Below, piece after piece: positions 1-34,007 of a stretch of DNA of 64,000 nucleotides (position 1 is its first letter; each line of letters starts with the position of its first letter). The notes beneath the pieces are model-generated. The model was not told the origin of the DNA. It worked only from the letters and a program-made list of their open reading frames with translations, and did not search any database. This DNA is from a virus. Where the stretch lies: IMG/VR virus record IMGVR_UViG_3300045988_120282, positions 70,940 through 134,939 of that record; one strand, written 5' to 3'. The position numbers were made by a program, and so were the translations under genes.

Positions 1-2
1 TT

Positions 3-254
3 ATGACAAAATATAAAGTGATTTTTGGTTATTTCAGCGAACTTGTAACAGTTGACGAACCTACAACGAATTATGGTGCAATCTTAGATCTTGCGATCGA
101 TCAACTAGAATCTAATGGAAATATGGGCGTATTTGTTTCAGATGAAGATATAGAACGTGATGGGATCACTGATGATATGTATATCACTGGTGGAAATCAC
201 GGACTGAACTTATATCACGGTGGTAATTTTATGATAGAAAGAGTTGACGAGTAG
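3..254 (+). CDS. hypothetical protein (may be 5'-truncated at window edge)
   Basis: ORF track; first ATG at window start so true start unknown; acidic small protein typical of phage early genes. Confidence 0.4.
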   Translation: MTKYKVIFGYFSELVTVDEPTTNYGAILDLAIDQLESNGNMGVFVSDEDIERDGITDDMYITGGNHGLNLYHGGNFMIERVDE

Positions 255-3147: not shown

Positions 3148-3606
3148 ATGGAAAATACAAATACATTAACAGTAAAATTCGTCGGTTTTGGTGGTGGATT
3201 TATGGAATATCCATGCTATAAAGATGAAAACGAAAAGCTATATTTTGACATAAACGATGGGAAAAATGGACTTGACTTATACACTGGTGCTTACATGGAT
3301 GAACTTGGAGATATTTGTGGTGAACCAAATCAGTCAGTAATGCAAGAAATCAAATGCGATAAACCATTTTCAAGGAATCTTAGAGAACGTGATTATCAGT
3401 TTCTAAGTAGATTAAAAGCAGATTGCGAATACTTCTTAAGAAATGGAAACGGTTGTAAGAAATACTTATATAAAGAAAGCATTGAAAAACATTGCGATGA
3501 GATGGAAAAAATATGGAATTCATTTACAGACGAACAAAAACCTAAATGGTTAACGATGGAACAAATAAAAGATTTTAGAAAGAAAATGTTAAATACAAGA
3601 AAGTAG
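3148..3606 (+). CDS. hypothetical Cys-rich protein
   Basis: ORF after GGCGGTGGAAAC. Confidence 0.55.
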   Translation: MENTNTLTVKFVGFGGGFMEYPCYKDENEKLYFDINDGKNGLDLYTGAYMDELGDICGEPNQSVMQEIKCDKPFSRNLRERDYQFLSRLKADCEYFLRNGNGCKKYLYKESIEKHCDEMEKIWNSFTDEQKPKWLTMEQIKDFRKKMLNTRK

Positions 3607-3615
3607 GTGGAAATT

Positions 3616-3804
3616 ATGATCGTAAGAAACACTTATACAGATGGTAGAACAGAAATTTTTTGTAATACGCCCGATGAATACAATGACTTATGTTGTGAGT
3701 ACGATTTAGAAGATTGTGGTATGAGTGGAAAATACGTTGGATCTAGTTGGAGCCACGATGATAAGAACAATGTAGACGTTTATTTTAAATATAAAGAAGA
3801 TTAG
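3616..3804 (+). CDS. hypothetical small acidic protein
   Basis: ORF; start placed at ATG after conserved AGGTGGAAATT RBS context. Confidence 0.5.
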   Translation: MIVRNTYTDGRTEIFCNTPDEYNDLCCEYDLEDCGMSGKYVGSSWSHDDKNNVDVYFKYKED

Positions 3805-3820
3805 AAAGTAGGTGGAAAGA

Positions 3821-4069
3821 ATGAGTCGCAGAACAACTATGGAATCATTAGCGTGTCACGTAGAACGCAAGTATCACACGTTATACTTTACGGAAAATCC
3901 TCCGAACGCTGGAATTGATGATAGCTTACATGGTTACAAATACTTCTTATTATTCAAGAACACGTTCGGAATTTTTCGGAAATACAGAACGCAAGAAGAA
4001 GCAATTAACGGCATGACGGAAATTTTAAAAGAAGATCCGTCAGAATTATTTAGTTACATAGCCAATTAA
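3821..4069 (+). CDS. hypothetical protein
   Basis: ORF; start at ATG after GTAGGTGGAAAGA. Confidence 0.5.
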   Translation: MSRRTTMESLACHVERKYHTLYFTENPPNAGIDDSLHGYKYFLLFKNTFGIFRKYRTQEEAINGMTEILKEDPSELFSYIAN

Positions 4070-4079
4070 AGGCTTTTAC

Positions 4080-4264
4080 TACTCATGATGATATGAGTAT
4101 ACACCATAACGGAAAGACTCGACTATTGAAGCTAATAGTTACTTTATATGAACGGAAAGACTGTACTACTGGTTGATGGTAGTGACGTATTGGAACGGAA
4201 AAACGGTGGCGTATGGTAGATAAAAGAGTGCTTTTATCGGTGGGTTCGATTCCTATCCCGTCAC
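4080..4264. repeat. non-coding region with palindrome, three 43-bp-spaced AACGGAAA(GACT) iterons and a tRNA T-arm-like fragment
   Basis: TACTCAT-N6-ATGAGTA palindrome 4080-4099; AACGGAAAGACT at 4108 and 4151, AACGGAAAAACGG at 4194 (exact 43-nt phasing); GGTGGGTTCGATTCC at 4239-4253 shares the 11-mer GGTTCGATTCC with the T-arm of the tRNA at 33740. Confidence 0.5.
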
Positions 4265-4344
4265 TTTTCACGATGGAAATTATCGTGTATAATAAAGGAA
4301 AACTATTAATATTTAAAGTCCTGATAGGCAGAAAGAAGGAAATT

Positions 4345-4824
4345 ATGTACGAGTTCAAAGAACTGATCTTGCCTGAACATTTTAGACACGCCTCTTACGG
4401 TGGATTTTGTGTAAAACCGGGAATGTTTTATGGCGTAGAAAAAGAAACTGGAAAATTAGTAGCTACAACGGGATTGAATGTAAACGGATTAACAAACATT
4501 TATATCCAGCACGAACCAAAGATCCAATGGAATAATGATTTGTGGGAAGATCTTTACGATGATTATGGAAAACCTTTAATCACGATTGAAGAGAACGACT
4601 TGCAACGGATTAGTGATAAGGTTAAAGATTTTCAGAAAACGGCAATGGATTTTGAAACGTGGGCAGACGAAAACGGATATAATGAAGAATATTGTGAAGA
4701 TCTTACTAGAGAAGAACTAGATCAGATAGAAGAATCTTATGAATGGTATTACTTTATGGGATATCCTGAGTTTGTGATCCAGCTTTTAAAAGAACATTGG
4801 GATTTAGAAAATTATGAAGAATAG
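4345..4824 (+). CDS. hypothetical strongly acidic protein (DNA-mimic-like composition)
   Basis: Start placed at ATG 4345 behind RBS AGAAAGAAGGAAATT; C-terminal half rich in D/E/Y/W; the track's upstream extension overlaps the non-coding repeat region. Confidence 0.55.
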   Translation: MYEFKELILPEHFRHASYGGFCVKPGMFYGVEKETGKLVATTGLNVNGLTNIYIQHEPKIQWNNDLWEDLYDDYGKPLITIEENDLQRISDKVKDFQKTAMDFETWADENGYNEEYCEDLTREELDQIEESYEWYYFMGYPEFVIQLLKEHWDLENYEE

Positions 4825-4837
4825 GAAGGTGGAAATT

Positions 4838-5176
4838 ATGAAATCATATAAAGAATACGATAGAGAATTTATTGGGGATAGTGATATTGCGGCTTTAATT
4901 TTTGTAGGCACAACAAAAGACGGATTGAAGGCGAATATCTTAAATTTTGGTTGTGATGGAAGATATAATGCTTATATTGTGGATGAGAACGCAAAGATCG
5001 GAGATCACTATACCTTAGAGATGGAATTTGAAACATCATCAGGATTCAGGGCATGGCTCAAAATCTATGACGATGTAGGATTGATGGCAGATTATAAGGC
5101 AGACAAAATTAGAGTATATCGTGCTGGAGATTTTGGTTGCATTATTCAGCTTATCGGAAAGAAAGAATGTGAATAA
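4838..5176 (+). CDS. hypothetical protein
   Basis: ORF; start after AGGTGGAAATT context. Confidence 0.5.
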   Translation: MKSYKEYDREFIGDSDIAALIFVGTTKDGLKANILNFGCDGRYNAYIVDENAKIGDHYTLEMEFETSSGFRAWLKIYDDVGLMADYKADKIRVYRAGDFGCIIQLIGKKECE

Positions 5177-17872: not shown

Positions 17873-18823
17873 ATGGCAGCAACACAGTTTGAAGTTATTA
17901 AAACAGCAAACAATAATAACGCAGAAGAACCTGAAGCAAAGATCAAAAGACGTAAGGACGGAAATCCTAAATGGACTCGATCTAATAAACAAAAAGGCGT
18001 ATCATCTTTAGTGTATCCAATTAAGAACAAAGAAAAATTTGCAGCCTTTAATGCATATTTTAGAGACCAGATTGATAAATCGTACACAGAGTACAAACGA
18101 TATGTAGCTGCCAGAAACAATCTTTTGGTTGCAGTTGGAAACAATACAGCATATCGTATCTCTGATATCGTCAGACTCAAATGGGGCGATTTATTAAACG
18201 ATAAGACTCGTAAGCAGGAAAAGAAAACAAAGAAATTCAGAACTGTATACTTTAACGATTTGGTAACTGAAGCAGTGGATATTTTCTTTGAAGCTGTTGC
18301 AGGAACTAAATATGATGTCAAGATTGATGGCGAAGTGCCAATGGATGATTATGTTTTTGGAACATGTAAGTCTGGATCAGGACACATGACTGAAGCAAAT
18401 GCTTTGGATTTTGTTAAAAAAGGTGCTAAAGCAGTTGGAATTGAGGACAATATTGGTACGCATACATTACGAAAGAACTTTGTGTATTGGACACTTGTCG
18501 ATCATAAAGATGATCAGAACGTATTGTATACACTTATGAGATTATTGAATCATAGTAGCCCTGCAATGACATTTCTGTATGCAACAATCACAGAGGAAGA
18601 AACTCATGTATTGTTTGATGATATTGCGCAGACATACAAGGAAATTATCAGTGGGGCTTTTAACGGATTGAAGGAAAATGTTGTTAATGTGAGTTATGAT
18701 AGAGTTATGGAGATTATCAAGTTTGCTTATAAGACTGGCAAAGATGATGCAGATCAAGATGATAGAGTACATGAAGATAATATGCAGGCATTAGAAGAGT
18801 TATTGGAAGGAGTAATTGTATGA
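17873..18823 (+). CDS. tyrosine recombinase / phage integrase family protein
   Basis: Catalytic signature present: box I AYRISDIVRLKWGDL (Arg), GTHTLRKNF (His-x-x-Arg), LLNHSSPAMTFLYA (His ... Tyr). Confidence 0.8.
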   Translation: MAATQFEVIKTANNNNAEEPEAKIKRRKDGNPKWTRSNKQKGVSSLVYPIKNKEKFAAFNAYFRDQIDKSYTEYKRYVAARNNLLVAVGNNTAYRISDIVRLKWGDLLNDKTRKQEKKTKKFRTVYFNDLVTEAVDIFFEAVAGTKYDVKIDGEVPMDDYVFGTCKSGSGHMTEANALDFVKKGAKAVGIEDNIGTHTLRKNFVYWTLVDHKDDQNVLYTLMRLLNHSSPAMTFLYATITEEETHVLFDDIAQTYKEIISGAFNGLKENVVNVSYDRVMEIIKFAYKTGKDDADQDDRVHEDNMQALEELLEGVIV

Positions 18824-20007: not shown

Positions 20008-20057
20008 TTAATTCATGAAAATAAAAAATGCAACTGGGGAAAGTTGAGGGACGTAAA

Positions 20058-20507
20058 ATGAACGGATATACTAACAAAGAAAGAAAAGGAAACGATAACA
20101 GAAAAAGAAAAGAATATGTATATGGCAAATATCAAAATCCTCAAGTTTGGGGAATATATTTTGCAGATTTGCCGAAAATTGAAGGTAGTCACATCTTGCA
20201 TGGGAAAAGACCAGTCATCGTATATTCTAATAATATTTGTAATAATACAAGCACTGAGATTAACGTGTATCCAATTACAAAAAAATTAAGGAACTGGATA
20301 CCGACACATGTGACCATTTATCCAAATACCAGTAATGGATTAAAAATGGTATCACAGGTGTATTTAGAGCAAGGAAGAACAATTCCAAAGAATAATCTTT
20401 TAGAGTATTGGGGAAGAATATCTGATCTATCTTTAATGTTAAAAATAGGGCATGGCATTTTAATACAAAACGGCATGTTATCGTACATGAATGCAATGGC
20501 ATCCTAG
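20058..20507 (+). CDS. PemK/MazF-fold protein (putative toxin-like endoribonuclease fold)
   Basis: VWGIYFADLPKIEGSHILHGKRPVIVYSNNICNNTSTEINVYPITKK...HVTI...MVSQVYLEQGRTIPKNNL follows the PemK/MazF consensus (G-i-v-f-g-sE-gk-RP-lV-snd---tv-v-PiT); start placed at ATG 20058 behind RBS GAGGGA. Confidence 0.6.
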   Translation: MNGYTNKERKGNDNRKRKEYVYGKYQNPQVWGIYFADLPKIEGSHILHGKRPVIVYSNNICNNTSTEINVYPITKKLRNWIPTHVTIYPNTSNGLKMVSQVYLEQGRTIPKNNLLEYWGRISDLSLMLKIGHGILIQNGMLSYMNAMAS

Positions 20508-20521
20508 AAATGGAGAATGTT

Positions 20522-21538
20522 ATGAATAATAAAGAATTGATACAAAATTATATAGATTCTCACGTATCAGAATCACGTCGCCCAACATGGAATTGGTTAT
20601 TAGATTCTGATATTGCGGACGACAATGAATCTGGGTTAACGTATGCACCAGGCACAATCCAAAAGGCTATATTATCAGATACTAGAGGTAAAAAAACCAA
20701 AAGTATGAATTCTATTAAAAAAAGATATGACCAGCTTGTGAAATTGTATACTTATGCATATGAACAAAATTACATTAAATATAATCCATTTGTTAATGAT
20801 AAATTTATAAACTTGCAATTAGCAGTTGATATATATTTTTCAAATAGAGTTAATGTTAATTATGTTACGCCAGATAAAATAAATGCGTTTATTTCGAATC
20901 TGATGTCGTGCAATGCATCAGCCGATACCAAATTGAATACTAGATTTCACATTGTGAGTTTATATAATGGGATAAATGGAAAGGAGTTAAGAAATCTAAA
21001 ATTCTCGGATATTAATCAAAATGATTTAACAATTTTTGGGAAACCAGTCTCCAAAGATTTTATCGAGACATTGAATGAATATAAATTGAAAATGGGAGAT
21101 ACGAATATATATGATGATTTTGTATTAATACCACGAAAAAAATGTAATAATATAGAAGAATATAAAGCAGAGCAAAAGAGGATATATAATAATGTGCAGT
21201 CTCAATTAGAATTAACAGGCAATACTTTATCTTATGAAAAATTGACAACCATTGATGTTATTAATTCTGGTTTTATACAATATTTAAAATCTAAAATGGA
21301 TATCAAGGCAATTGCAGATTTATATTATATTAAATCAAAAGAAGGAATTGCACGATCTGTAATCGCACGTCAATTTAGTGATATTGCAATTGATTTTTAT
21401 TATAATTATTATATATCATATAGAATAAAGAAGAAACAATTTAGTGATCGTCAAACGGTAATCGGTAAAAGTATTGGTTACCTATATAAAGATGAGGACT
21501 ATAAGAATTATCGTGTACATCAAATCATGGCAGAATAA
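20522..21538 (+). CDS. hypothetical protein with tyrosine-recombinase-like N-terminal/core-binding features but degenerate catalytic motifs
   Basis: AYEQNYIKYNPFVN resembles the core-binding domain end and GINGKELRNLKFSDI resembles box I; no H-x-x-R or His/Tyr box recognisable, so functional call is weak. Confidence 0.3.
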   Translation: MNNKELIQNYIDSHVSESRRPTWNWLLDSDIADDNESGLTYAPGTIQKAILSDTRGKKTKSMNSIKKRYDQLVKLYTYAYEQNYIKYNPFVNDKFINLQLAVDIYFSNRVNVNYVTPDKINAFISNLMSCNASADTKLNTRFHIVSLYNGINGKELRNLKFSDINQNDLTIFGKPVSKDFIETLNEYKLKMGDTNIYDDFVLIPRKKCNNIEEYKAEQKRIYNNVQSQLELTGNTLSYEKLTTIDVINSGFIQYLKSKMDIKAIADLYYIKSKEGIARSVIARQFSDIAIDFYYNYYISYRIKKKQFSDRQTVIGKSIGYLYKDEDYKNYRVHQIMAE

Positions 21539-27794: not shown

Positions 27795-28631
27795 ATGATT
27801 ACTATTGGTGGAGTACCAGTTGTTCCAGAATCTTTTCCAGATGGAACACAGAAAATTGATTTACCGTTAGGAGCAATGAGATCACGGATTGCAGTAAATA
27901 AATTTGTATCAATTGAATGGCTGTATGAATCAGATAAAGAATTATTTTCGCTATATTGTATTTCAAAAAGTATTCGAGAATATTTCCCACATTTATCACA
28001 GTGTTTAGTGATGCCGTATATTCCGAATGCAAGATTTGACAGGGTTAAAGATCATAACGAATGTTTTACATTAAAATATTTTGCAGAAATCATCAATGAA
28101 TTAAATTTCAGAAAGGTCATCGTAGCAGATCCTCACTCAGATGTTTCTAAAGCATTGATTGATCACCTACAATATATACCAATTAAACTATATATTTCTA
28201 AGGTTTGCAATAAAGTCCTTAAAGCAGAACCATCAAGAAATCTTGTAATCTATTTCCCAGATAGCGGATCACTAAAAAGATATTCTGAATTTGTATCAGA
28301 TGATTATCCGATTGTCTATGGAATTAAAAATCGTGATTGGAAGACAGGCAAAATTCTTGGTATTGAGATTCATGGAGATACAGATAAATTAGATGAGAAT
28401 ACAGCAATTTTAATGATTGATGATATTTGTAGTAAGGGTGGCACATTCTACTACGGATCAAAAGAATTAAACAAATACGGTTGTAAAGATATGTATTTAT
28501 ATGTTAGTCACTGTGAAAATACAATTCTTGATGGAGAATTATTAAAGGAAGATAGTTTGTTTAAAAAAGTGTATACGACACGTAGTATTTTTACAAAAGA
28601 GCATGAGAAGGTTGAGGTGTTAGATTTATGA
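27795..28631 (+). CDS. ribose-phosphate pyrophosphokinase (Prs) homolog; candidate ADP-ribose pyrophosphokinase (Adps-like)
   Basis: Prs-family blocks VMPYIPNARFDR (vs PYYGYARQDR), VIVADPHS (vs IALDLHA), AILMIDDICSKGGT (vs AILIDDIIDTAGT); shorter and divergent relative to housekeeping Prs. Confidence 0.75.
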   Translation: MITIGGVPVVPESFPDGTQKIDLPLGAMRSRIAVNKFVSIEWLYESDKELFSLYCISKSIREYFPHLSQCLVMPYIPNARFDRVKDHNECFTLKYFAEIINELNFRKVIVADPHSDVSKALIDHLQYIPIKLYISKVCNKVLKAEPSRNLVIYFPDSGSLKRYSEFVSDDYPIVYGIKNRDWKTGKILGIEIHGDTDKLDENTAILMIDDICSKGGTFYYGSKELNKYGCKDMYLYVSHCENTILDGELLKEDSLFKKVYTTRSIFTKEHEKVEVLDL

Positions 28632-30097
28632 AACAGACAAATCCAATGTTATTAATTGATTTTTACAAAGCAGTCCATGCTGAAATGTTACCAAAAGGTA
28701 TTACAAAATCTGTTTCTTATTTTACTCCACGTATGAGCAGAGTAAAACGATGGAATGAAGTAGCCATGTTTGGATTACAAGGATTCATTAAAGAGTATTT
28801 GGTCGATTATTTTAATGAGTATTTTTTCTTTGAATATAGAAACAAAGCAATTGGTACTTATAAGACAGTAATGGATGCAGCTCTTGGAGAAGGTACATAT
28901 GGATTACAGAAAATCGAAGATTTATATGATCTTGGCTATCTTCCAATTGAGATTAAGGCTCTTCCTGAAGGAACTTTAGTACCAATGCATGTGCCGATGT
29001 TTAGTATTGAGAATACTCACAAAGATTTTGCATGGTTACCACAGGCATTAGAAAGTTTAATTTCAGCAGAAATGTGGCATCCGATGATAGCTGCGACTGT
29101 CGGGCATACATATAGACAGATCGTTAATAAGTTTTATGAAATGACTTGCGATGATGATATCCCAAAATCTAAGGCATTAGGGGCTTTCGATTTTCGTGGC
29201 GAAGAATGTTTACAGTCTGCGGTTAAAGCAGGGGCAGGATGGTGTTTATCATTCTTGAATACAGCAACAGTTCCAACAATTCCGTATTTAGAGAGAAATT
29301 ATAACTGTGATTGTACGAAAGAGCCAGTTGCTTTTGGTAGTCCGTCTACTGAGCATTCGGTTATGTGTAGTAATTATGCGATTGACGGAGATGAAGAGAC
29401 ACTGATTAAAAGATTGCTAACAGAGATTTACCCAAATACAAGCTTCTCCGCAGTGTTAGATTCTTATGATTATTGGAATGTTGTAGAGAATATTCTTCCA
29501 AAACTCAAGAATGAGATCATGAATCACAATGGATGTTTTCTTGTAAGAGGGGATTCAGGAGATTGTGTAGATGTAGTAACCAGAACAGTATTCAAGTTAT
29601 GGGAAGAATTTGGCGGAACTACGAATAGTAAAGGATACAAAGTATTAGATCCTCATGTAAAAGCAATTTATGGAGATTCAATTACAGTGCAGAGATGTGA
29701 GCAGATTTATGACATCTTAGAGAAAAATGGATTCGCAGCAAGCAATGTTGCACTTGGCGTTGGATCATTCTCATTTCAGTGTATCGAAGAAGATGGAGTT
29801 TTGAAACCATTTACAAGAGATACGTTTAGTAGTTGCATCAAAGCAACATATTGTGAGATTGATGGCAGACCATATCCGATTTTTAAGAATCCAAAAGATG
29901 GCGGATTTAAGAAATCTCAGAGAGGTTTATGTCATGTCTATAAAGGATCAGACGGCAAACTGACATTTAAAGATGAATATACTTCAGAAAATCTTCCAAT
30001 GAATAATTTGCTTGAGACGGTATTTAGAGACGGTAAATTGGTCAAAGAACAGTCATTACAGGAGATTAGAAGAGTGTTAAACGAAGGAGAATTTTAA
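28628..30097 (+). CDS. NAMPT-family phosphoribosyltransferase (NadV / Namat-like)
   Basis: Collinear with NAMPT over full length: LLIDFYKAVH, LPIEIKALPEG, FDFRGEE, PSTEHSV, VLDSYD, VRGDSGD, NSKGYKVLDPHVKAIYGDSI. Confidence 0.85.
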   Translation: MKQTNPMLLIDFYKAVHAEMLPKGITKSVSYFTPRMSRVKRWNEVAMFGLQGFIKEYLVDYFNEYFFFEYRNKAIGTYKTVMDAALGEGTYGLQKIEDLYDLGYLPIEIKALPEGTLVPMHVPMFSIENTHKDFAWLPQALESLISAEMWHPMIAATVGHTYRQIVNKFYEMTCDDDIPKSKALGAFDFRGEECLQSAVKAGAGWCLSFLNTATVPTIPYLERNYNCDCTKEPVAFGSPSTEHSVMCSNYAIDGDEETLIKRLLTEIYPNTSFSAVLDSYDYWNVVENILPKLKNEIMNHNGCFLVRGDSGDCVDVVTRTVFKLWEEFGGTTNSKGYKVLDPHVKAIYGDSITVQRCEQIYDILEKNGFAASNVALGVGSFSFQCIEEDGVLKPFTRDTFSSCIKATYCEIDGRPYPIFKNPKDGGFKKSQRGLCHVYKGSDGKLTFKDEYTSENLPMNNLLETVFRDGKLVKEQSLQEIRRVLNEGEF

Positions 30098-31285: not shown

Positions 31286-32746
31286 ATGATTGAAGTAATT
31301 GGAACAGTGGTACCAGTGGTTATTGCGGTAGGTGGCGTAGGAGCTATTATCGGTAGCGGTTATGTCAAAGCAAGTCCAGATAAAGCTTATATTATTTCTG
31401 GACTTAGAAAGACACCTAAGACATTAATTGGTAAGGCAGGGTTAAAAATCCCATTCTTTGAAAAAGCAGATCATCTTAATCTTGAGTTAATTCCAATTGA
31501 TGTTAAGACATCAAGTTCTGTGCCTACAGCAGATTATATCAATATCAATGTAGATGCAGCGGTCAATGTAAAGGTTAGCAGTAATCCAGAAAGATTAAAA
31601 CTTGCAGCAGAAAACTTCTTAAATAAGCCAGTAGGCGATATTGGACAGGTCGCAAGAGAAGTCCTTGAAGGTAATATGCGAGAGATCGTTGGAAAGATGA
31701 GCCTCGAAGAAATGGTTTCTGATCGTCAGAAATTTGCACAGCTTGTTACAGAAAATGCGAAGCCAGACCTTGCTGCAATGGGATTAGATATCATCAGTTT
31801 TAATGTGCAGAATTTTATGGATGATAATGATGTTATTGAAAATCTTGGTGTAGATAATGTTGTTAAAATTCAGAAGAAGGCTGCAATTTCCAGAGCTGAA
31901 AGCGAAAGAGATATTGAAAAAGCAAAAGCAATGGCTGAAAAAGAAGCGAATGATGCAAGGGTTGAGTCAGAAACAGCGATCGCAGAAAAGAATAACAATC
32001 TGGAAATTAAAAAATCTGAACTTGAGAAGATTTCAAAAGCAAAGAAGGCTGAGGCAGATGCAGCATACAAGATTCAGGAAGAAAAATCACGTAAAGAAAT
32101 TGAAATTGTAACTGCGGATGCTAATATTATGCGTCAGGAAAAAGAAATTGAACTGAAACGTAAAGACGTTGAGGTAACAGAGCAGACATTAGATGCACAG
32201 ATCAAGAAACAGGCAGAGGCTGAAAGATATGCCTCTCAGCAGAAAGCAGATGCAGATTTATATAAGAGACAGAAAGAGTCAGAAGCTAATAAATATGCTA
32301 AAGAAAAAGAAGCTGAATCTACAAAATATGCTATGGAACAGGAAGCTGAAGGTATCCGTGCGAAAGGTGTAGCAGAAGCTGAGGCGATTAAAGCAAAAGG
32401 TATTGCTGAAGCAGAAGCGATCGAAAAGAAAGCCGAAGCTATGAAGCAGATGGGTAAAGCTTCTATCGTCGAAATGATGTGCCAGATGTTCCCAGAAGCA
32501 GTTAAAAATGCAGCTGCGCCATTAGGAAACGTAGGAAGTATCACTATGTATGGAGAAGGCAATACAACAAAATTAACAAAAGATATTATGAATGTTGTGA
32601 ATCAGGTATCAGATGGTGTTAAAGGATCTACAGGTGTTGATCTTGCAAAGATGTTGAAAGATTTTGTTTCTGAAGATAAAGAAGTAGAGTTTACAGATAA
32701 TGAAAATCTTGGAACACCAGAGCCAGCAGATTACCGTGAGTTCTAA
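31286..32746 (+). CDS. floT: flotillin (SPFH/band-7 domain, FloT/YuaG-like)
   Basis: N-terminal TM helix, SPFH core (REVLEGNMREIVGKMSLEEMVSDRQKFAQLV...MGLDIISFNV), Glu/Ala-repeat coiled coil (AEAEAIKAKGIAEAEAIEKKAEAM), C-term IVEMMCQMFPEAVKNAAAPLGNV as in B. subtilis FloT. Confidence 0.9.
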   Translation: MIEVIGTVVPVVIAVGGVGAIIGSGYVKASPDKAYIISGLRKTPKTLIGKAGLKIPFFEKADHLNLELIPIDVKTSSSVPTADYININVDAAVNVKVSSNPERLKLAAENFLNKPVGDIGQVAREVLEGNMREIVGKMSLEEMVSDRQKFAQLVTENAKPDLAAMGLDIISFNVQNFMDDNDVIENLGVDNVVKIQKKAAISRAESERDIEKAKAMAEKEANDARVESETAIAEKNNNLEIKKSELEKISKAKKAEADAAYKIQEEKSRKEIEIVTADANIMRQEKEIELKRKDVEVTEQTLDAQIKKQAEAERYASQQKADADLYKRQKESEANKYAKEKEAESTKYAMEQEAEGIRAKGVAEAEAIKAKGIAEAEAIEKKAEAMKQMGKASIVEMMCQMFPEAVKNAAAPLGNVGSITMYGEGNTTKLTKDIMNVVNQVSDGVKGSTGVDLAKMLKDFVSEDKEVEFTDNENLGTPEPADYREF

Positions 32747-33536: not shown

Positions 33537-33630
33537 ACTGGCATTTTATGACTCTATAAAACACAATATATAGTGATTATCCAATTATTGAACCACTATA
33601 TATAGTTGTATAAAGTGCCAGTCATGGAAA
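33537..33630. repeat. large nested inverted repeat upstream of tRNA
   Basis: Outer arms AACTGGCATTTTATGAC / ATAAAGTGCCAGTCAT; inner arms CACAATATATAGTG / CACTATATATAGTTGT. Confidence 0.45.
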
Positions 33631-33763
33631 CATAGCTCAGTTGGTAGAGCAGGCAATACATAAACATTCATTTTTCTACCTCCATATAAGTATTTTTATT
33701 TATTTACATTTAATTTTCATCACATATAAATTGCCGACACAGGTTCGATTCCTGTTGTTTCCA
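33626..33763 (+). tRNA. tRNA gene interrupted by an ~67-nt AT-rich insertion in the anticodon loop (anticodon region CAT?)
   Basis: 5' half GGAAACA-TA-GCTC-AGTTGGTA-GAGC-A-GGCAA (33626-33656) and 3' half TTGCC-GAC-ACAGG-TTCGATT-CCTGT-TGTTTCC-A (33731-33763) form perfect acceptor, D, anticodon and T stems; loop begins TACATAA; no encoded CCA. Confidence 0.5.
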
Positions 33764-33765
33764 CT

Positions 33766-33802
33766 AAAAAAGACCTCAACCTAAATGGTTAAAGTCTTTT
33801 TG
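33766..33802. terminator. bidirectional rho-independent terminator
   Basis: AAAAAAGAC ... GTCTTTTTT two-segment hairpin with U-tracts on both strands, between convergent tRNA and repressor gene. Confidence 0.55.
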
Positions 33803-33803
33803 G

Positions 33804-34007
33804 TTAATCGTTTGGTATGACCTCGATAACATCTTCAACTTTGCAATCAAGATATAAGCAAATTTTGTCAATGTTTTCGAGACTGATATACTGATTCTTT
33901 GCCATCTTGGCAATTGTACCAGACCCCATATTTAAAGCGGTTCGTAAATCAGATTTTGTCATACCCTTTTTCGCTAAAGTTACGAAAAGCGGTTTATAAC
34001 TTATCAT
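33804..34007 (-). CDS. XRE-family helix-turn-helix transcriptional repressor (Cro/CI-like)
   Basis: MTKSDLRTALNMGSGTIAKMAKNQYISLENIDKICLYLDCKVEDVIEV is a canonical XRE HTH; RBS GGAGGT 7 nt before ATG 34007; only minus-strand gene, divergent from an operator-bearing promoter. Confidence 0.8.
   Translation of the reverse strand: MISYKPLFVTLAKKGMTKSDLRTALNMGSGTIAKMAKNQYISLENIDKICLYLDCKVEDVIEVIPND

What the first reader, a model, noticed from the sequence alone, without database searches (positions are those of the whole stretch)
4070..4344. 275-nt non-coding island with phased iterons, palindromes and a tRNA T-arm fragment
Between two early genes lies a coding-free stretch containing a perfect TACTCAT-N6-ATGAGTA palindrome and three AACGGAAA(GACT) repeats with exact 43-nt spacing (4108, 4151, 4194). 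Each inter-repeat spacer carries its own small palindrome. At 4239-4264 a GGTGGGTTCGATTCCTATCCCG segment shares the T-loop 11-mer with the split tRNA 29 kb away. The track ORFs covering it (4083-4358 minus strand; the 5' part of 4213-4824) are almost certainly spurious. Candidate functions are a replication origin or iteron site, a structured ncRNA, or a recombination site derived from a tRNA, pointing to a secondary att or a fossil integration core.
Basis: seen in the sequence. Interest (0 to 1): 0.55.

Follow-up and report, generated by a model that had tools for sequence, protein, structure and literature searches.

The report
tRNA-like RNA element before phage promoter
The coding-free island is a conserved, folded stretch of RNA in an uncultivated ~160-kb phage: three stem-loops followed by a 62-nt tRNA look-alike that has no anticodon and sits directly against an internal promoter. 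It most likely serves as a cutting and boundary signal for early transcripts, not as a replication origin or an integration site.

Summary
The "T-arm fragment" is in fact a complete 62-nt tRNA-like domain (4205-4266). It has a 7-bp acceptor stem, U8-A9, a D-loop-like GG, an 8-bp hairpin where the anticodon arm would be, a T arm and a U discriminator. It overlaps the -35 box of a sigma-70-type promoter (4265-4293) that carries a palindrome in its spacer.

Across 28 distinct variants from about 60 related contigs, 452 of 496 pair cells are Watson-Crick, 36 are G·U and only 6 are A·C, with compensatory changes in the T stem. This points to a plus-strand RNA. It is absent from Rfam and is not called by ARAGORN.

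All 52 IMG/VR loci that carry a member of the downstream gene family have the element. Nine of them have two copies flanking an optional gene, and the window's copy is a chimera of the two types.

I found no matching host tRNA, no split (integrated) form and no GC-skew inflection.

Best reading (about 0.5): an RNase P/Z-type "t-element" plus a promoter cassette that also acts as a recombination hotspot. It is a new variant of a known kind, of moderate interest.

The parts
4054..4079 (+). Invariant block TTACATAGCCAATTAAAGGCTTTTAC. It spans the stop codon of the upstream gene (TAA 4067-4069) and contains a small AGCC-N7-GGCT hairpin followed by TTTT.
   Evidence: It is identical in both haplotypes of the upstream gene's 3' end. 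Because it never varies, there is no covariation evidence. Any terminator role is inference only.
4080..4099 (+). hp1: a 7-bp stem-loop, TACTCAT-GATGAT-ATGAGTA.
   Evidence: A second haplotype (GTCTGT-N6-GCAGAC) keeps the same register, with 5 of 7 pairs changed on both sides and 100% of cells paired. Single substitutions in u30 and u22 give U·G pairs.
4108..4150 (+). Repeat unit 1: single-stranded head AACGGAAAGAC (4108-4118) plus hp2, ACTATT-GAAGCT-AATAGT (4122-4139).
   Evidence: hp2 is invariant in 29 sequences.
4151..4193 (+). Repeat unit 2: head AACGGAAAGAC (4151-4161), hp3 CTACT-GGTTGAT-GGTAG (4166-4182; 5 bp, 7-nt loop), and tail GACGTATTGG. With the preceding GT the tail reads GTGACGTATTGG, which resembles the 5' end of the tRNA-like domain (GTGGCGTATGG).
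   Evidence: The closing pair occurs as U·G, U-A or C-G. Single substitutions in u24 and u31 give G·U pairs.
4194..4204 (+). Repeat unit 3, head only: AACGGAAAAAC.
   Evidence: It is invariant apart from two variants.
4205..4266 (+). tRNA-like domain, laid out as follows:
- acceptor 5' strand 4205-4211
- U8 A9 at 4212-4213
- D-loop-like GG at 4215-4216
- hp4, GATAAAAG-AGTG-CTTTTATC, at 4219-4238
- T arm GTGGG-TTCGATT-CCTAT at 4240-4256
- 2-nt linker at 4257-4258
- acceptor 3' strand 4259-4265
- discriminator U at 4266

It has no anticodon loop and no D stem.
   Evidence: - RNAalifold finds this fold on its own.
- Pair counts support it.
- The covariance model scores it 86 bits, and it is the only hit in the window.
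- The minimum-free-energy fold is -19.5 kcal/mol for the plus strand and -10 for the reverse complement.
- The best Rfam match is tRNA-Sec at 18 bits, far below its threshold.
- ARAGORN finds nothing.
4265..4293 (+). Sigma-70-type promoter: TTTTCA (TTCACA in many relatives), 17-nt spacer, TATAAT. The inferred transcription start is near 4300. The -35 box overlaps the 3' end of the tRNA-like domain.
   Evidence: 10 of 12 consensus positions. Diversity is 0.01. It is conserved upstream of all three alleles of the downstream gene.
4269..4287 (.). Perfect palindrome CACGAT-N7-ATCGTG inside the promoter spacer. It is a candidate operator.
   Evidence: the only exact copy in the window. It is invariant apart from one G·U-type change. 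That a protein binds it is inference.
4315..4344 (+). Leader: AAAGTCC, a small hairpin (CCT-GAT-AGG, 4320-4328), and the ribosome-binding site GAAGGA (4335-4340).
   Evidence: A similar leader (AAAGTCCCGTAAAGGGCAGAAGGAAGGA) follows an intrinsic terminator elsewhere in related genomes. In L099 it is the junction of a 4.4-kb deletion.
4345..4824 (+). Downstream gene ('gene B', 159 aa), of unknown function. In relatives it is replaced by alleles that are only 23-38% identical.
   Evidence: There is no Pfam or PHROG hit. The AlphaFold2 model reached pLDDT 61 and gave no fold match. All 52 IMG/VR loci with this family carry the tRNA-like element upstream.
3812..4069 (+). Upstream gene ('gene A', 85 aa), the last small early gene before the island.
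   Evidence: It has only a weak DUF2188 hit and no PHROG hit.

Best explanation
Positions 4054-4344 form a composite regulatory cassette inside a long early operon of an uncultivated, roughly 160-kb, low-GC phage.

Shown:
- The plus-strand transcript of 4080-4266 folds into three stem-loops (hp1-hp3), separated by conserved single-stranded AACGGAA segments.
- It ends in a 62-nt tRNA-like domain with a 7-bp acceptor helix, U8-A9, a D-loop-like GG, a hairpin where the anticodon arm would be, a canonical T arm, a U discriminator and no encoded CCA.
- The domain abuts, and overlaps by 2 nt, the -35 box of a conserved sigma-70-type promoter whose spacer holds a palindrome.
- The domain and promoter always precede a member of one fast-diverging gene family.
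- The domain occurs in two paralogous types (H, a minimal acceptor/T-arm minihelix; V, with the extra hairpin). These can flank an optional gene, and they recombine with each other. The window's copy is a V-5'/H-3' chimera joined in the T loop.

Inferred:
- Read-through early transcripts start at consensus promoters about 6.8 kb upstream. Host RNase P cuts them just 5' of the acceptor stem (at 4204/4205 or 4205/4206), and RNase Z cuts them after the discriminator (4266/4267).
- This works like a plant-mitochondrial 't-element'. It ends and stabilises the upstream message, with the hairpins at its new 3' end, and it insulates the downstream gene. That gene's expression then depends on the operator-controlled internal promoter.
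- Because it is a highly conserved repeat, the cassette also serves as a substrate for homologous recombination that swaps, inserts and deletes neighbouring genes, as PeSL cassettes do in T4-type phages.
For: RNA structure:
- 43 pairs in 7 helices are 99.5% paired over 29 distinct sequences, against 30-63% when the partners are slid by 1-3 columns. Nine pairs carry double changes.
- RNAalifold independently returns the acceptor, hp4 and T-arm junction.
- In 28 distinct elements the pair cells are 452 Watson-Crick, 36 G·U, 6 A·C and 2 other.
- Four further single-side stem substitutions in hp1 and hp3 all give G·U on the plus strand.
- The plus strand folds to -19.5 to -22.7 kcal/mol (z -2.0 to -3.3). 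The reverse complement folds to -10 (z -0.8).

tRNA likeness:
- The T loop TTCRATT is kept, with G53/C61 and A58 conserved, and U8 A9 and GG are invariant.
- The best Rfam hit is a tRNA model, tRNA-Sec.
- There is no CCA, and a U follows the discriminator. From established knowledge of B. subtilis RNase Z, that is the context it prefers.

Context:
- The promoter matches 10 of 12 consensus positions.
- Perfect TTGACA-17-TATAAT early promoters lie upstream in relatives.
- All genes are on the plus strand.

Association:
- 52 of 52 IMG/VR loci with the gene-B family have the element 80-140 nt upstream of the gene start.
- There is one copy per genome, or two when the optional gene is present.

Functional replacement:
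- In L099, and after another early gene in L095, the same leader is preceded by a canonical intrinsic terminator instead.

Recombination role:
- The optional gene is flanked by H and V copies, and there are chimeric elements, a truncated element (L094) and a 4.4-kb deletion.

Precedents:
- t-elements containing GGTTCRANYCC direct RNase P/Z cleavage of mRNAs (PMC1920247).
- Promoter-plus-stem-loop cassettes mediate modular shuffling (PMC2839356).
Against: - There is no transcript data. Transcription through the island, the cleavage sites and any stable 62-nt product are all inferred.
- The acceptor/T-arm stack is not canonical. A 2-nt linker (or a 6th T-stem pair plus a bulge) sits between the T stem and the acceptor 3' strand, giving about 13 layers rather than 12, and the first pair is G·U or A-U. 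RNase P or RNase Z might not accept it.
- A pure processing signal should need only structure, yet the 5' half and hp4 are almost invariant in sequence (diversity 0.007-0.017). That implies an extra sequence-specific role at either the RNA or the DNA level.
- hp4 is a perfect DNA palindrome centred about 71.5 bp upstream of the inferred start, so it could be a protein-binding site instead.
- The conserved AACGGAA heads are left unexplained.
- The element is dispensable in at least two natural variants (L099 deleted; L094 truncated after hp4).
Confidence: 0.5

Rival explanations
1. The tRNA-like domain is made for its own sake. It is excised (with or without CCA addition) as a stable small RNA that acts in trans, for example as a decoy or sponge for a host protein that recognises the tRNA acceptor/T-arm elbow (a tRNA-targeting defence nuclease or toxin, a modification or CCA-adding enzyme, or EF-Tu after charging). 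The upstream hairpin RNA could be a second product.
For: - The RNA-structure evidence is the same as for the best explanation.
- The locus lies in an early region rich in counter-defence-type genes in relatives: ArdA, DpnD-PcfM, HicAB and MazF.
- The near-invariant 5' half and hp4 suggest a specific binding partner.
- G3·U70-like wobble pairs occur in about half of the variants.
- Phage and bacterial Y RNAs with tRNA-like modules are cut by RNase P and receive CCA (PMC4201824).
Against: - No partner protein can be identified. The flanking genes have no family hits and no Ro60 homologue was seen.
- The parts a protein would be expected to read, the T stem and acceptor 3' strand, are the most variable (diversity 0.13-0.24).
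- The G·U positions are not conserved, so a fixed aminoacylation identity is unlikely.
- H-type copies lack hp4 altogether.
- A literature search found no precedent for an anticodon-less phage decoy.
Confidence: 0.15
2. The conserved sequences work mainly as DNA. The three AACGGAA direct repeats (4 helical turns apart), the hp4 palindrome (about -71.5) and the spacer palindrome (about -22) would be binding sites for phage regulators of the internal promoter. The tRNA likeness would be an inherited scaffold of little present use.
For: - hp2, hp4, the repeat heads and the spacer palindrome are invariant, so they give no covariation evidence.
- Diversity there is 0.007-0.06, below that of the coding DNA.
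- The 43-bp phasing fits binding on one face of the helix.
- Relatives encode XRE-type regulators and BRO-N proteins nearby.
Against: - hp1, hp3, the T stem and the acceptor stem change in ways that preserve RNA pairing, with G·U on the plus strand only. DNA sites would not behave like this.
- hp1 is replaced wholesale by a different hairpin in the same register.
- The repeats and hp4 are absent from some functional promoter contexts: V copies after the optional gene lack the repeats, and H-only loci lack hp4.
- The spacing is 44 rather than 43 in several relatives.
Confidence: 0.12
3. It is a site-specific recombination site. Either it is an attP core copied from the 3' end of a host tRNA gene, with the AACGGAA repeats as arm-type integrase sites, or it is a folded cassette site used by the phage's tyrosine recombinase.
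For: - A tyrosine recombinase gene lies at 17873-18823 (PF00589, E 1e-13).
- A T stem-loop offers an inverted repeat with a 7-nt spacer.
- Variation is concentrated in a block running from the T stem to the 3' end.
- An optional gene is flanked by two copies.
- tRNA gene fragments commonly mark integration events (PMC9897764).
Against: - GGTTCGATTCCTATCCCGTC occurs in no tRNA gene of 185,579 species genomes. The single hit is coding DNA.
- The block is not a canonical tRNA 3' end, because 8 nt rather than 7 plus the discriminator follow the T stem. The element also has its own pairing 5' strand.
- The recombinase is 13.6 kb away and only 316 aa, with no arm-binding domain detected.
- Breakpoints among variants differ: in the shared 5' part, in the T loop, after the T stem and at the 3' end. 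That is what homologous exchange produces, not a fixed crossover.
- No contig shows the locus split.
Confidence: 0.05
4. It is an iteron-type origin of replication.
For: There are three phased direct repeats and several palindromes in an AT-rich, coding-free stretch.
Against: - There is no GC-skew inflection at the site in the window or in L099.
- The helicase, RecJ and Pol III alpha genes lie 48-56 kb away.
- The locus is deleted in L099.
- The substitution pattern is strand-specific and RNA-like.
Confidence: 0.03
5. It is a decaying tRNA pseudogene with no function, carried along with the adjacent promoter.
For: - ARAGORN and the Rfam tRNA models reject it.
- The D arm and anticodon loop are missing.
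- A few variants have a mismatch in the T stem.
- The phage carries another disrupted tRNA.
Against: - Only 8 of 496 pair cells are non-pairing across 28 distinct variants, despite high sequence turnover in the T stem, including four pair types at one position.
- It is present in 52 of 52 loci.
- Two structural types are both maintained.
Confidence: 0.07

Closest known systems
Plant-mitochondrial t-elements (tRNA-like processing signals in mRNAs; PMC1920247)
   Same: Both are non-decoding tRNA-like folds built around a conserved GGTTCRANYCC T loop with an acceptor-like stem. Both are embedded between genes in polycistronic transcripts. t-elements are proposed or shown to direct RNase P and RNase Z cuts that create mRNA ends.
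   Different: This one is in a bacteriophage of a low-GC host. It is a three-way junction with a tetraloop hairpin in place of the D and anticodon arms (or a bare minihelix in the H type). It has a 2-nt linker between the T stem and the acceptor strand. It is fused to a promoter and preceded by three repeat-hairpin modules. Cleavage has not been tested here.
PeSL cassettes of T4-type phages (early promoter + stem-loop; PMC2839356, PMC4122927)
   Same: Both are conserved regulatory cassettes (an RNA structure next to a sigma-70-type promoter) in a region of small, variable early genes. In both, insertion, deletion and replacement breakpoints fall at the cassettes.
   Different: The order is reversed, with the structure before the promoter. 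The structure is tRNA-like rather than a terminator hairpin. There are only one or two copies per genome rather than dozens. The phage lineage and host phylum are unrelated. Circular intermediates were not examined.
tRNA-like modules of bacterial and phage Y RNAs (YrlA; PMC4201824), and the tmRNA tRNA-like domain
   Same: Both are non-decoding RNAs that keep a T arm, an acceptor-like stem and the elbow. YrlA of M. smegmatis is cut by RNase P and receives CCA.
   Different: There is no Rfam YrlA or tmRNA hit and ARAGORN finds no tmRNA. No Ro60 or SmpB partner gene was seen. The architecture differs and the element sits between cistrons.
attP cores derived from tRNA gene 3' ends
   Same: Both contain a T arm plus an acceptor 3' strand, and both show sequence variation concentrated in that block.
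   Different: This element also contains the pairing 5' strand. No host tRNA matches it, it is not adjacent to an integrase, and it has never been seen split.
Iteron-type replication origins
   Same: Both have direct repeats at a regular spacing close to a whole number of helical turns.
   Different: There are only three repeats. They are separated by hairpins that evolve as RNA. There is no Rep gene, no skew change, and the locus is dispensable.

Membership tests
Canonical tRNA gene | Cloverleaf with a D arm and an anticodon arm carrying a 7-nt loop, detectable by tRNA finders | tested here: not met
   ARAGORN finds no genes in the window. No Rfam tRNA hit reaches the gathering score at this site. 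The best match is tRNA-Sec at 18.2 bits against a threshold of 47. hp4 has a 4-nt loop and there is no D stem.
Canonical tRNA gene | 7-bp acceptor stem, 5-bp T stem, and a T loop TTCRANY with G53-C61 | tested here: met
   The acceptor stem is 4205-4211 paired with 4259-4265, and the T arm is 4240-4256. Pairing is kept in 28 variants. One deviation is a 2-nt linker between the T stem and the acceptor 3' strand.
t-element (tRNA-like mRNA processing signal) | GGTTCRANYCC motif within a non-canonical tRNA-like fold, inside a transcript that is not a tRNA gene | tested here: met
   GGTTCGATTCC lies at 4243-4253. The fold is supported by covariation. The position is intercistronic, with all genes on the same strand.
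t-element (tRNA-like mRNA processing signal) | mRNA 5'/3' ends that coincide with the ends of the element, and cleavage by RNase P/RNase Z | not testable with these tools
   No transcript data or enzymology are available. Only indirect hints exist: no CCA, a U after the discriminator, and a terminator at the equivalent place in L099/L095.
PeSL-like mobile regulatory cassette | A strong sigma-70-type promoter joined to an RNA stem-loop structure in a region of small variable genes | tested here: met
   Promoter at 4265-4293. The adjacent structure is supported. The surrounding small genes have no known function and their content varies between relatives. The structure is tRNA-like rather than a terminator.
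PeSL-like mobile regulatory cassette | Insertion, deletion and replacement breakpoints between related genomes fall in the cassettes | tested here: met
   An optional 219-aa gene is flanked by H and V copies. There are chimeric elements, a truncation with replacement in L094, a 4.4-kb deletion between repeated leaders in L099, and three divergent alleles downstream.
PeSL-like mobile regulatory cassette | Many copies per genome | tested here: not met
   The covariance model finds one copy in 64 kb of the window and one or two per related locus.
tRNA-derived attP / integration core | Sequence identity with the 3' part of a host tRNA gene | tested here: not met
   The 20-mer GGTTCGATTCCTATCCCGTC gives one hit in 185,579 species genomes, in coding DNA and not in a tRNA.
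tRNA-derived attP / integration core | An integrase next to the site, and integrated forms in which the site is split into attL and attR | tested here: not met
   The nearest tyrosine recombinase is 13.6 kb away and has no arm-binding domain. Every contig examined keeps phage genes on both sides of the locus.
Iteron-type replication origin | An array of direct repeats bound by an initiator, next to a rep gene or an unwinding element, with a skew inflection | tested here: not met
   Three repeats are present. However, there is no skew change, no initiator gene nearby, and the locus is deleted in L099. Initiator binding itself cannot be tested here.
Y RNA (YrlA) / tmRNA | A match to the family model, and a partner gene (Ro60 / SmpB) or a tag reading frame | tested here: not met
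   There is no such Rfam match even at E up to 10. ARAGORN finds no tmRNA. The flanking proteins have no family hits.

The most novel reading that the evidence does not exclude
The tRNA-like domain is released by the host's own tRNA-processing enzymes and acts in trans as an anticodon-less tRNA mimic. It would titrate or mislead a host factor that reads the acceptor/T-arm elbow, for example a tRNA-targeting anti-phage nuclease or toxin. The mosaic turnover of its T stem and acceptor 3' strand, and the very divergent alleles of the gene it precedes, would then be traces of an arms race. This would be the first RNA decoy of its kind in a phage early (counter-defence) region.
Probability: 0.12. 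Interest if true: 0.8.

Novelty: new variant of a known kind. Interest (0 to 1): 0.5.

Why it matters
tRNA-like signals that recruit RNase P/Z to cut messenger RNAs are well documented in organelles and a few cellular RNAs. They are essentially undescribed as building blocks of phage operons.

Here a well-supported, Rfam-absent RNA motif is welded to a promoter in a widespread lineage of uncultivated ~160-kb human-associated phages. It marks the exact points where genes are swapped in and out.

If the processing model holds, it shows how a phage can borrow the host's tRNA maturation machinery to punctuate and insulate early transcripts. It would also be a low-GC-host counterpart to the PeSL cassettes that drive modular shuffling in T4-type phages. 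If the trans-acting reading holds instead, it would be a new class of RNA counter-defence.

The immediate practical value is for annotation. Two ORFs called over the island are spurious, and the site should not be annotated as a tRNA, an att site or an origin.

Tried and rejected
- **Nucleotide searches against isolate phages.** Searches of INPHARED phages (distant mode on 3600-5000; megablast on 1-25000) gave no match. The Pol III alpha protein is at most 36% identical to any isolate phage, so no annotated relative is available.
- **Rfam.** The gathering-threshold scan of the whole window, and an E up to 10 scan of 3900-4500, returned only chance-level hits at the site.
- **Tandem repeats.** TRF does not detect the 43-nt array.
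- **Single-sequence fold.** Folding the whole island alone is not significant (z -1.17). The signal comes only from comparison with relatives.
- **Alternative acceptor pairing.** The pairing suggested by the Rfam tRNA-Sec alignment (GTGACG at 4182-4187 with CGTCAC) was rejected, because the 3' strand variants of relatives do not pair with it. They do pair with GTGGCG at 4206.
- **Host tRNA / attB search.** It found nothing.
- **Other copies.** I looked for further copies of the T loop, the repeat motif, the spacer palindrome and the hp4 palindrome in the window. None was convincing. The covariance model also found no second copy.
- **Flanking genes.** Pfam, PHROGs and NCBIfam gave no function for them. 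The AlphaFold2 model of gene B (pLDDT 61) and a Foldseek search of the PDB gave nothing usable.
- **Donor tRNAs.** ARAGORN on 40 related loci found no canonical tRNA that could act as a donor for the variable block.
- **Integron-like cassette reading.** This was considered and judged unlikely, because the breakpoints vary.
- **CsrA/Hfq-type binding.** Binding of such proteins to the AACGGAA heads was considered but could not be tested.
- **Literature.** Searches found analogies but no description of this element.
Full report
**Setting.** The window is 34% GC and has a strong positive GC skew, and essentially all genes are on the plus strand. It has no nucleotide match to any isolate phage. Its Pol III alpha protein is at most 36% identical to any sequenced phage. 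Close relatives are abundant among uncultivated viral contigs of 80-170 kb (IMG/VR, Logan, ENA), some of them labelled 'Caudoviricetes sp.'. In those contigs the locus lies 6-8 kb to the right of a divergent control region. That region holds a minus-strand XRE-type gene and two perfect TTGACA-17-TATAAT promoters. After it comes a run of tiny plus-strand genes, including ArdA, HicAB and DpnD-PcfM-like genes. The island therefore sits inside a long early, counter-defence-type operon.

**Observation.** The palindrome is at 4080-4099. The three AACGGAAA(G/A)AC heads are at 4108, 4151 and 4194, with 43-nt spacing. Each spacer has a hairpin. The T-loop 11-mer is at 4243, shared with 33742. The two ORFs over the island cannot be genes. 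Relatives carry 1-nt indels and a 14-nt deletion inside them, and the downstream gene starts at ATG 4345 behind a GAAGGA ribosome-binding site.

**What the 'T-arm fragment' really is.** I aligned the interval from 29 distinct relatives (A1). The T stem covaries: GTGGG/CCTAT, GGCGG/CCGCC, GTGGG/CCCAC, GTAGG/CCTAC and GATAGG/CCTATC. The strand 3' of the T arm (CGTCAC, CGCTAC, CGCCAC, CGTTAC and others) always pairs with an invariant GTGGCG at 4206-4211, through G-C to G·U changes only. Counting a structure I specified gave 99.5% paired cells over 43 pairs, against 30-63% when the partners were slid. Nine pairs carried double changes. RNAalifold found the same junction without guidance.

With the base at 4205 (G or A in 27 of 28 variants) pairing with U 4265, the layout is: a 7-bp acceptor stem, U8 A9, UGGUA, an 8-bp hairpin with a tetraloop (hp4), one nucleotide, a 5-bp T stem with a TTCRATT loop, a 2-nt linker, the acceptor 3' strand, and a U discriminator. 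This is a tRNA-shaped three-way junction with no D stem and no anticodon loop, which explains why ARAGORN and the Rfam tRNA models reject it.

**RNA rather than DNA, and on the plus strand.** In 28 distinct elements the pair cells are 452 Watson-Crick, 36 G·U, 6 A·C and 2 other. The plus strand folds to -19.5 to -22.7 kcal/mol (z -2.0 to -3.3). Its reverse complement folds to -10 (z -0.8). Upstream, hp1 exists as two unrelated sequences in the same register, with 5 of 7 pairs doubly changed. The closing pair of hp3 is U·G, U-A or C-G. Four further single substitutions in hp1 and hp3, found among 35 distinct upstream variants, all create G·U on the plus strand. hp2, hp4, the AACGGAA heads and the promoter palindrome never vary, so they give no evidence either way.

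**Conservation profile.** Diversity is 0.10-0.15 in the flanking genes, 0.04-0.09 over the repeat units, 0.007-0.017 over 4192-4231 (repeat head 3, the acceptor 5' strand and the first part of hp4), 0.13-0.24 over the T arm and acceptor 3' strand, and 0.01 over the promoter. So the 5' half and the promoter are constrained in sequence, while the T arm and 3' strand are constrained only in structure.

**Two types and a mosaic history.** In nine IMG/VR contigs an optional 219-aa gene is flanked by two elements. On the left is a 48-nt 'H' type with no hp4 (GTGGCGTATGGTAATTTGYGATAGGTTCGATTCCTATCCCGTCRC). On the right is a 62-nt 'V' type with hp4. Genomes without that gene have V alone, H alone, or chimeras. 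The window's element has the V 5' part (hp4 and GTGGG) joined in the T loop to the H 3' part (TTCGATTCCTATCCCGTCAC). Another variant is H with a V-like 3' strand. Breakpoints therefore vary, as expected for homologous exchange or gene conversion and not for a fixed site-specific crossover. In L094 the element is truncated after hp4 and different genes follow. In L099 a 4.4-kb deletion removes the whole locus. Its junction lies in a leader (AAAGTCC...GGCAGAA.GAAGGA) that is repeated after another early gene, where it follows a canonical intrinsic terminator.

**Association.** The promoter (TTTTCA or TTCACA, 17-nt spacer, TATAAT) overlaps the last two bases of the element, and its spacer is a perfect CACGAT-N7-ATCGTG palindrome. 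Downstream there is always a member of one protein family. Its alleles are only 23-38% identical, and its function could not be determined. A covariance model built from the 28 variants finds exactly one copy in the window (86 bits). It also finds an element upstream of all 52 IMG/VR loci that encode the family.

**Rivals tested.**
- *Integration site.* The 20-mer covering the T loop and 3' strand has one chance hit, in coding DNA, and no tRNA hit in 185,579 species genomes. The block is not a canonical tRNA 3' end. The element has its own 5' strand. The only recombinase is 13.6 kb away, 316 aa long and has no arm-binding domain. No contig shows a split locus.
- *Origin.* There is no skew inflection, the replication genes are distant, and the locus is dispensable.
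- *Pseudogene.* Pairing is too well kept despite high turnover.
- *DNA operators.* This remains possible for the invariant parts (the heads, hp4 centred near -71.5, and the spacer palindrome). It cannot explain the RNA-type substitutions in hp1, hp3, the T stem and the acceptor stem.

**Mechanism proposed.** The fold and its strand, the promoter, the association with gene B and the recombination history are shown. The rest is inferred, as follows. Early read-through transcripts are cut by host RNase P at the 5' end of the acceptor stem and by RNase Z after the U discriminator. The absence of CCA and the U that follows fit what is known of B. subtilis RNase Z. This leaves an upstream mRNA that ends in hairpins. 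It also makes gene-B expression depend on the operator-bearing internal promoter. That is how plant-mitochondrial t-elements are thought to work (PMC1920247). The finding of an ordinary terminator at the equivalent place in other cassettes points the same way. The role as a recombination substrate parallels the PeSL cassettes of T4-type phages (PMC2839356). I put this reading at about 0.5. The near-invariant 5' half, hp4 and AACGGAA heads show that something sequence-specific remains unexplained. A trans-acting tRNA-mimic RNA is the most interesting alternative that the evidence leaves open.

**Verdict.** The element is not in Rfam and I found no description of it. It is best called a new variant of a known kind, a tRNA-like cis element or ncRNA, and it is of moderate interest.

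Noticed in passing
window 33626-33763 (+); L119 1018-1262 (-): The 'split tRNA' has intact acceptor, D and T arms, but about 65 AT-rich nt sit in its anticodon loop. Rfam scores it as tRNA at 46 bits, while ARAGORN rejects it. In one relative (L119) the same site holds a HEARO/omega RNA (RF02033, 98.9 bits) followed by an IscB-type ORF with PLMP, RuvC and HNH motifs. The window's insert therefore looks like a remnant of an IS200/605-family IscB element that targeted this tRNA.
   Followed up: partly
window 33660-33700 (-): On the minus strand the 65-nt insert carries GGAGG-N7-ATG, which opens a 28-codon ORF running back over the tRNA 5' half. A terminator-like hairpin (33766-33800) and a minus-strand XRE-like gene (about 33800-34000) follow the tRNA.
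   Followed up: no
window 17873-18823, 20028-20507, 20510-21538: There is a short (316-aa) tyrosine recombinase with no arm-binding domain, a MazF/PemK toxin, and a second ORF with a weak integrase-SAM hit. Together with HicAB and ArdA in relatives, this gene set resembles that of plasmids or phage-plasmids. The lifestyle is unresolved.
   Followed up: partly
L095 2850-3030 and 3030-3740 (about 6.8 kb upstream of the locus, outside the window): There are two perfect TTGACA-17-TATAAT promoters, each embedded in an ATCAAGT...ACTTGAT palindrome, next to a minus-strand XRE gene. A roughly 700-nt coding-free leader follows them and may hold another structured RNA.
   Followed up: no
window 4345-4824 and alleles in L045, L046, L083: The gene behind the promoter exists as at least three alleles that are 23-38% identical (159, 161 and 250 aa), while the non-coding DNA in front of it is almost identical. 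This pattern suggests diversifying selection or allele exchange. The function is unknown.
   Followed up: partly
L099 9880-10000; L095 5540-5660; window 1-10: A terminator-plus-leader cassette (AGACAAGTC-N7-GACTTGTCT-ATTTT ... AAAGTCCCGTAAAGGGCAGAAGGAAGGA) is repeated in the early region and mediated a 4.4-kb deletion in L099. The window begins immediately after one such cassette. The 120-aa gene in front of it ends with GTGGCGTAT, the same 9-mer that starts the tRNA-like element.
   Followed up: partly
protein clusters of gene B: Some contigs that carry this gene are 310-580 kb long, roughly two to three and a half times the usual 160 kb. They may be concatemer assemblies, or possibly integrated or larger replicons. 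I could not inspect them.
   Followed up: no
window 28628-30097, 31286-32746: The window encodes a NAMPT-type nicotinamide phosphoribosyltransferase and a flotillin/SPFH protein. The first may counter NAD-depleting defences.
   Followed up: no
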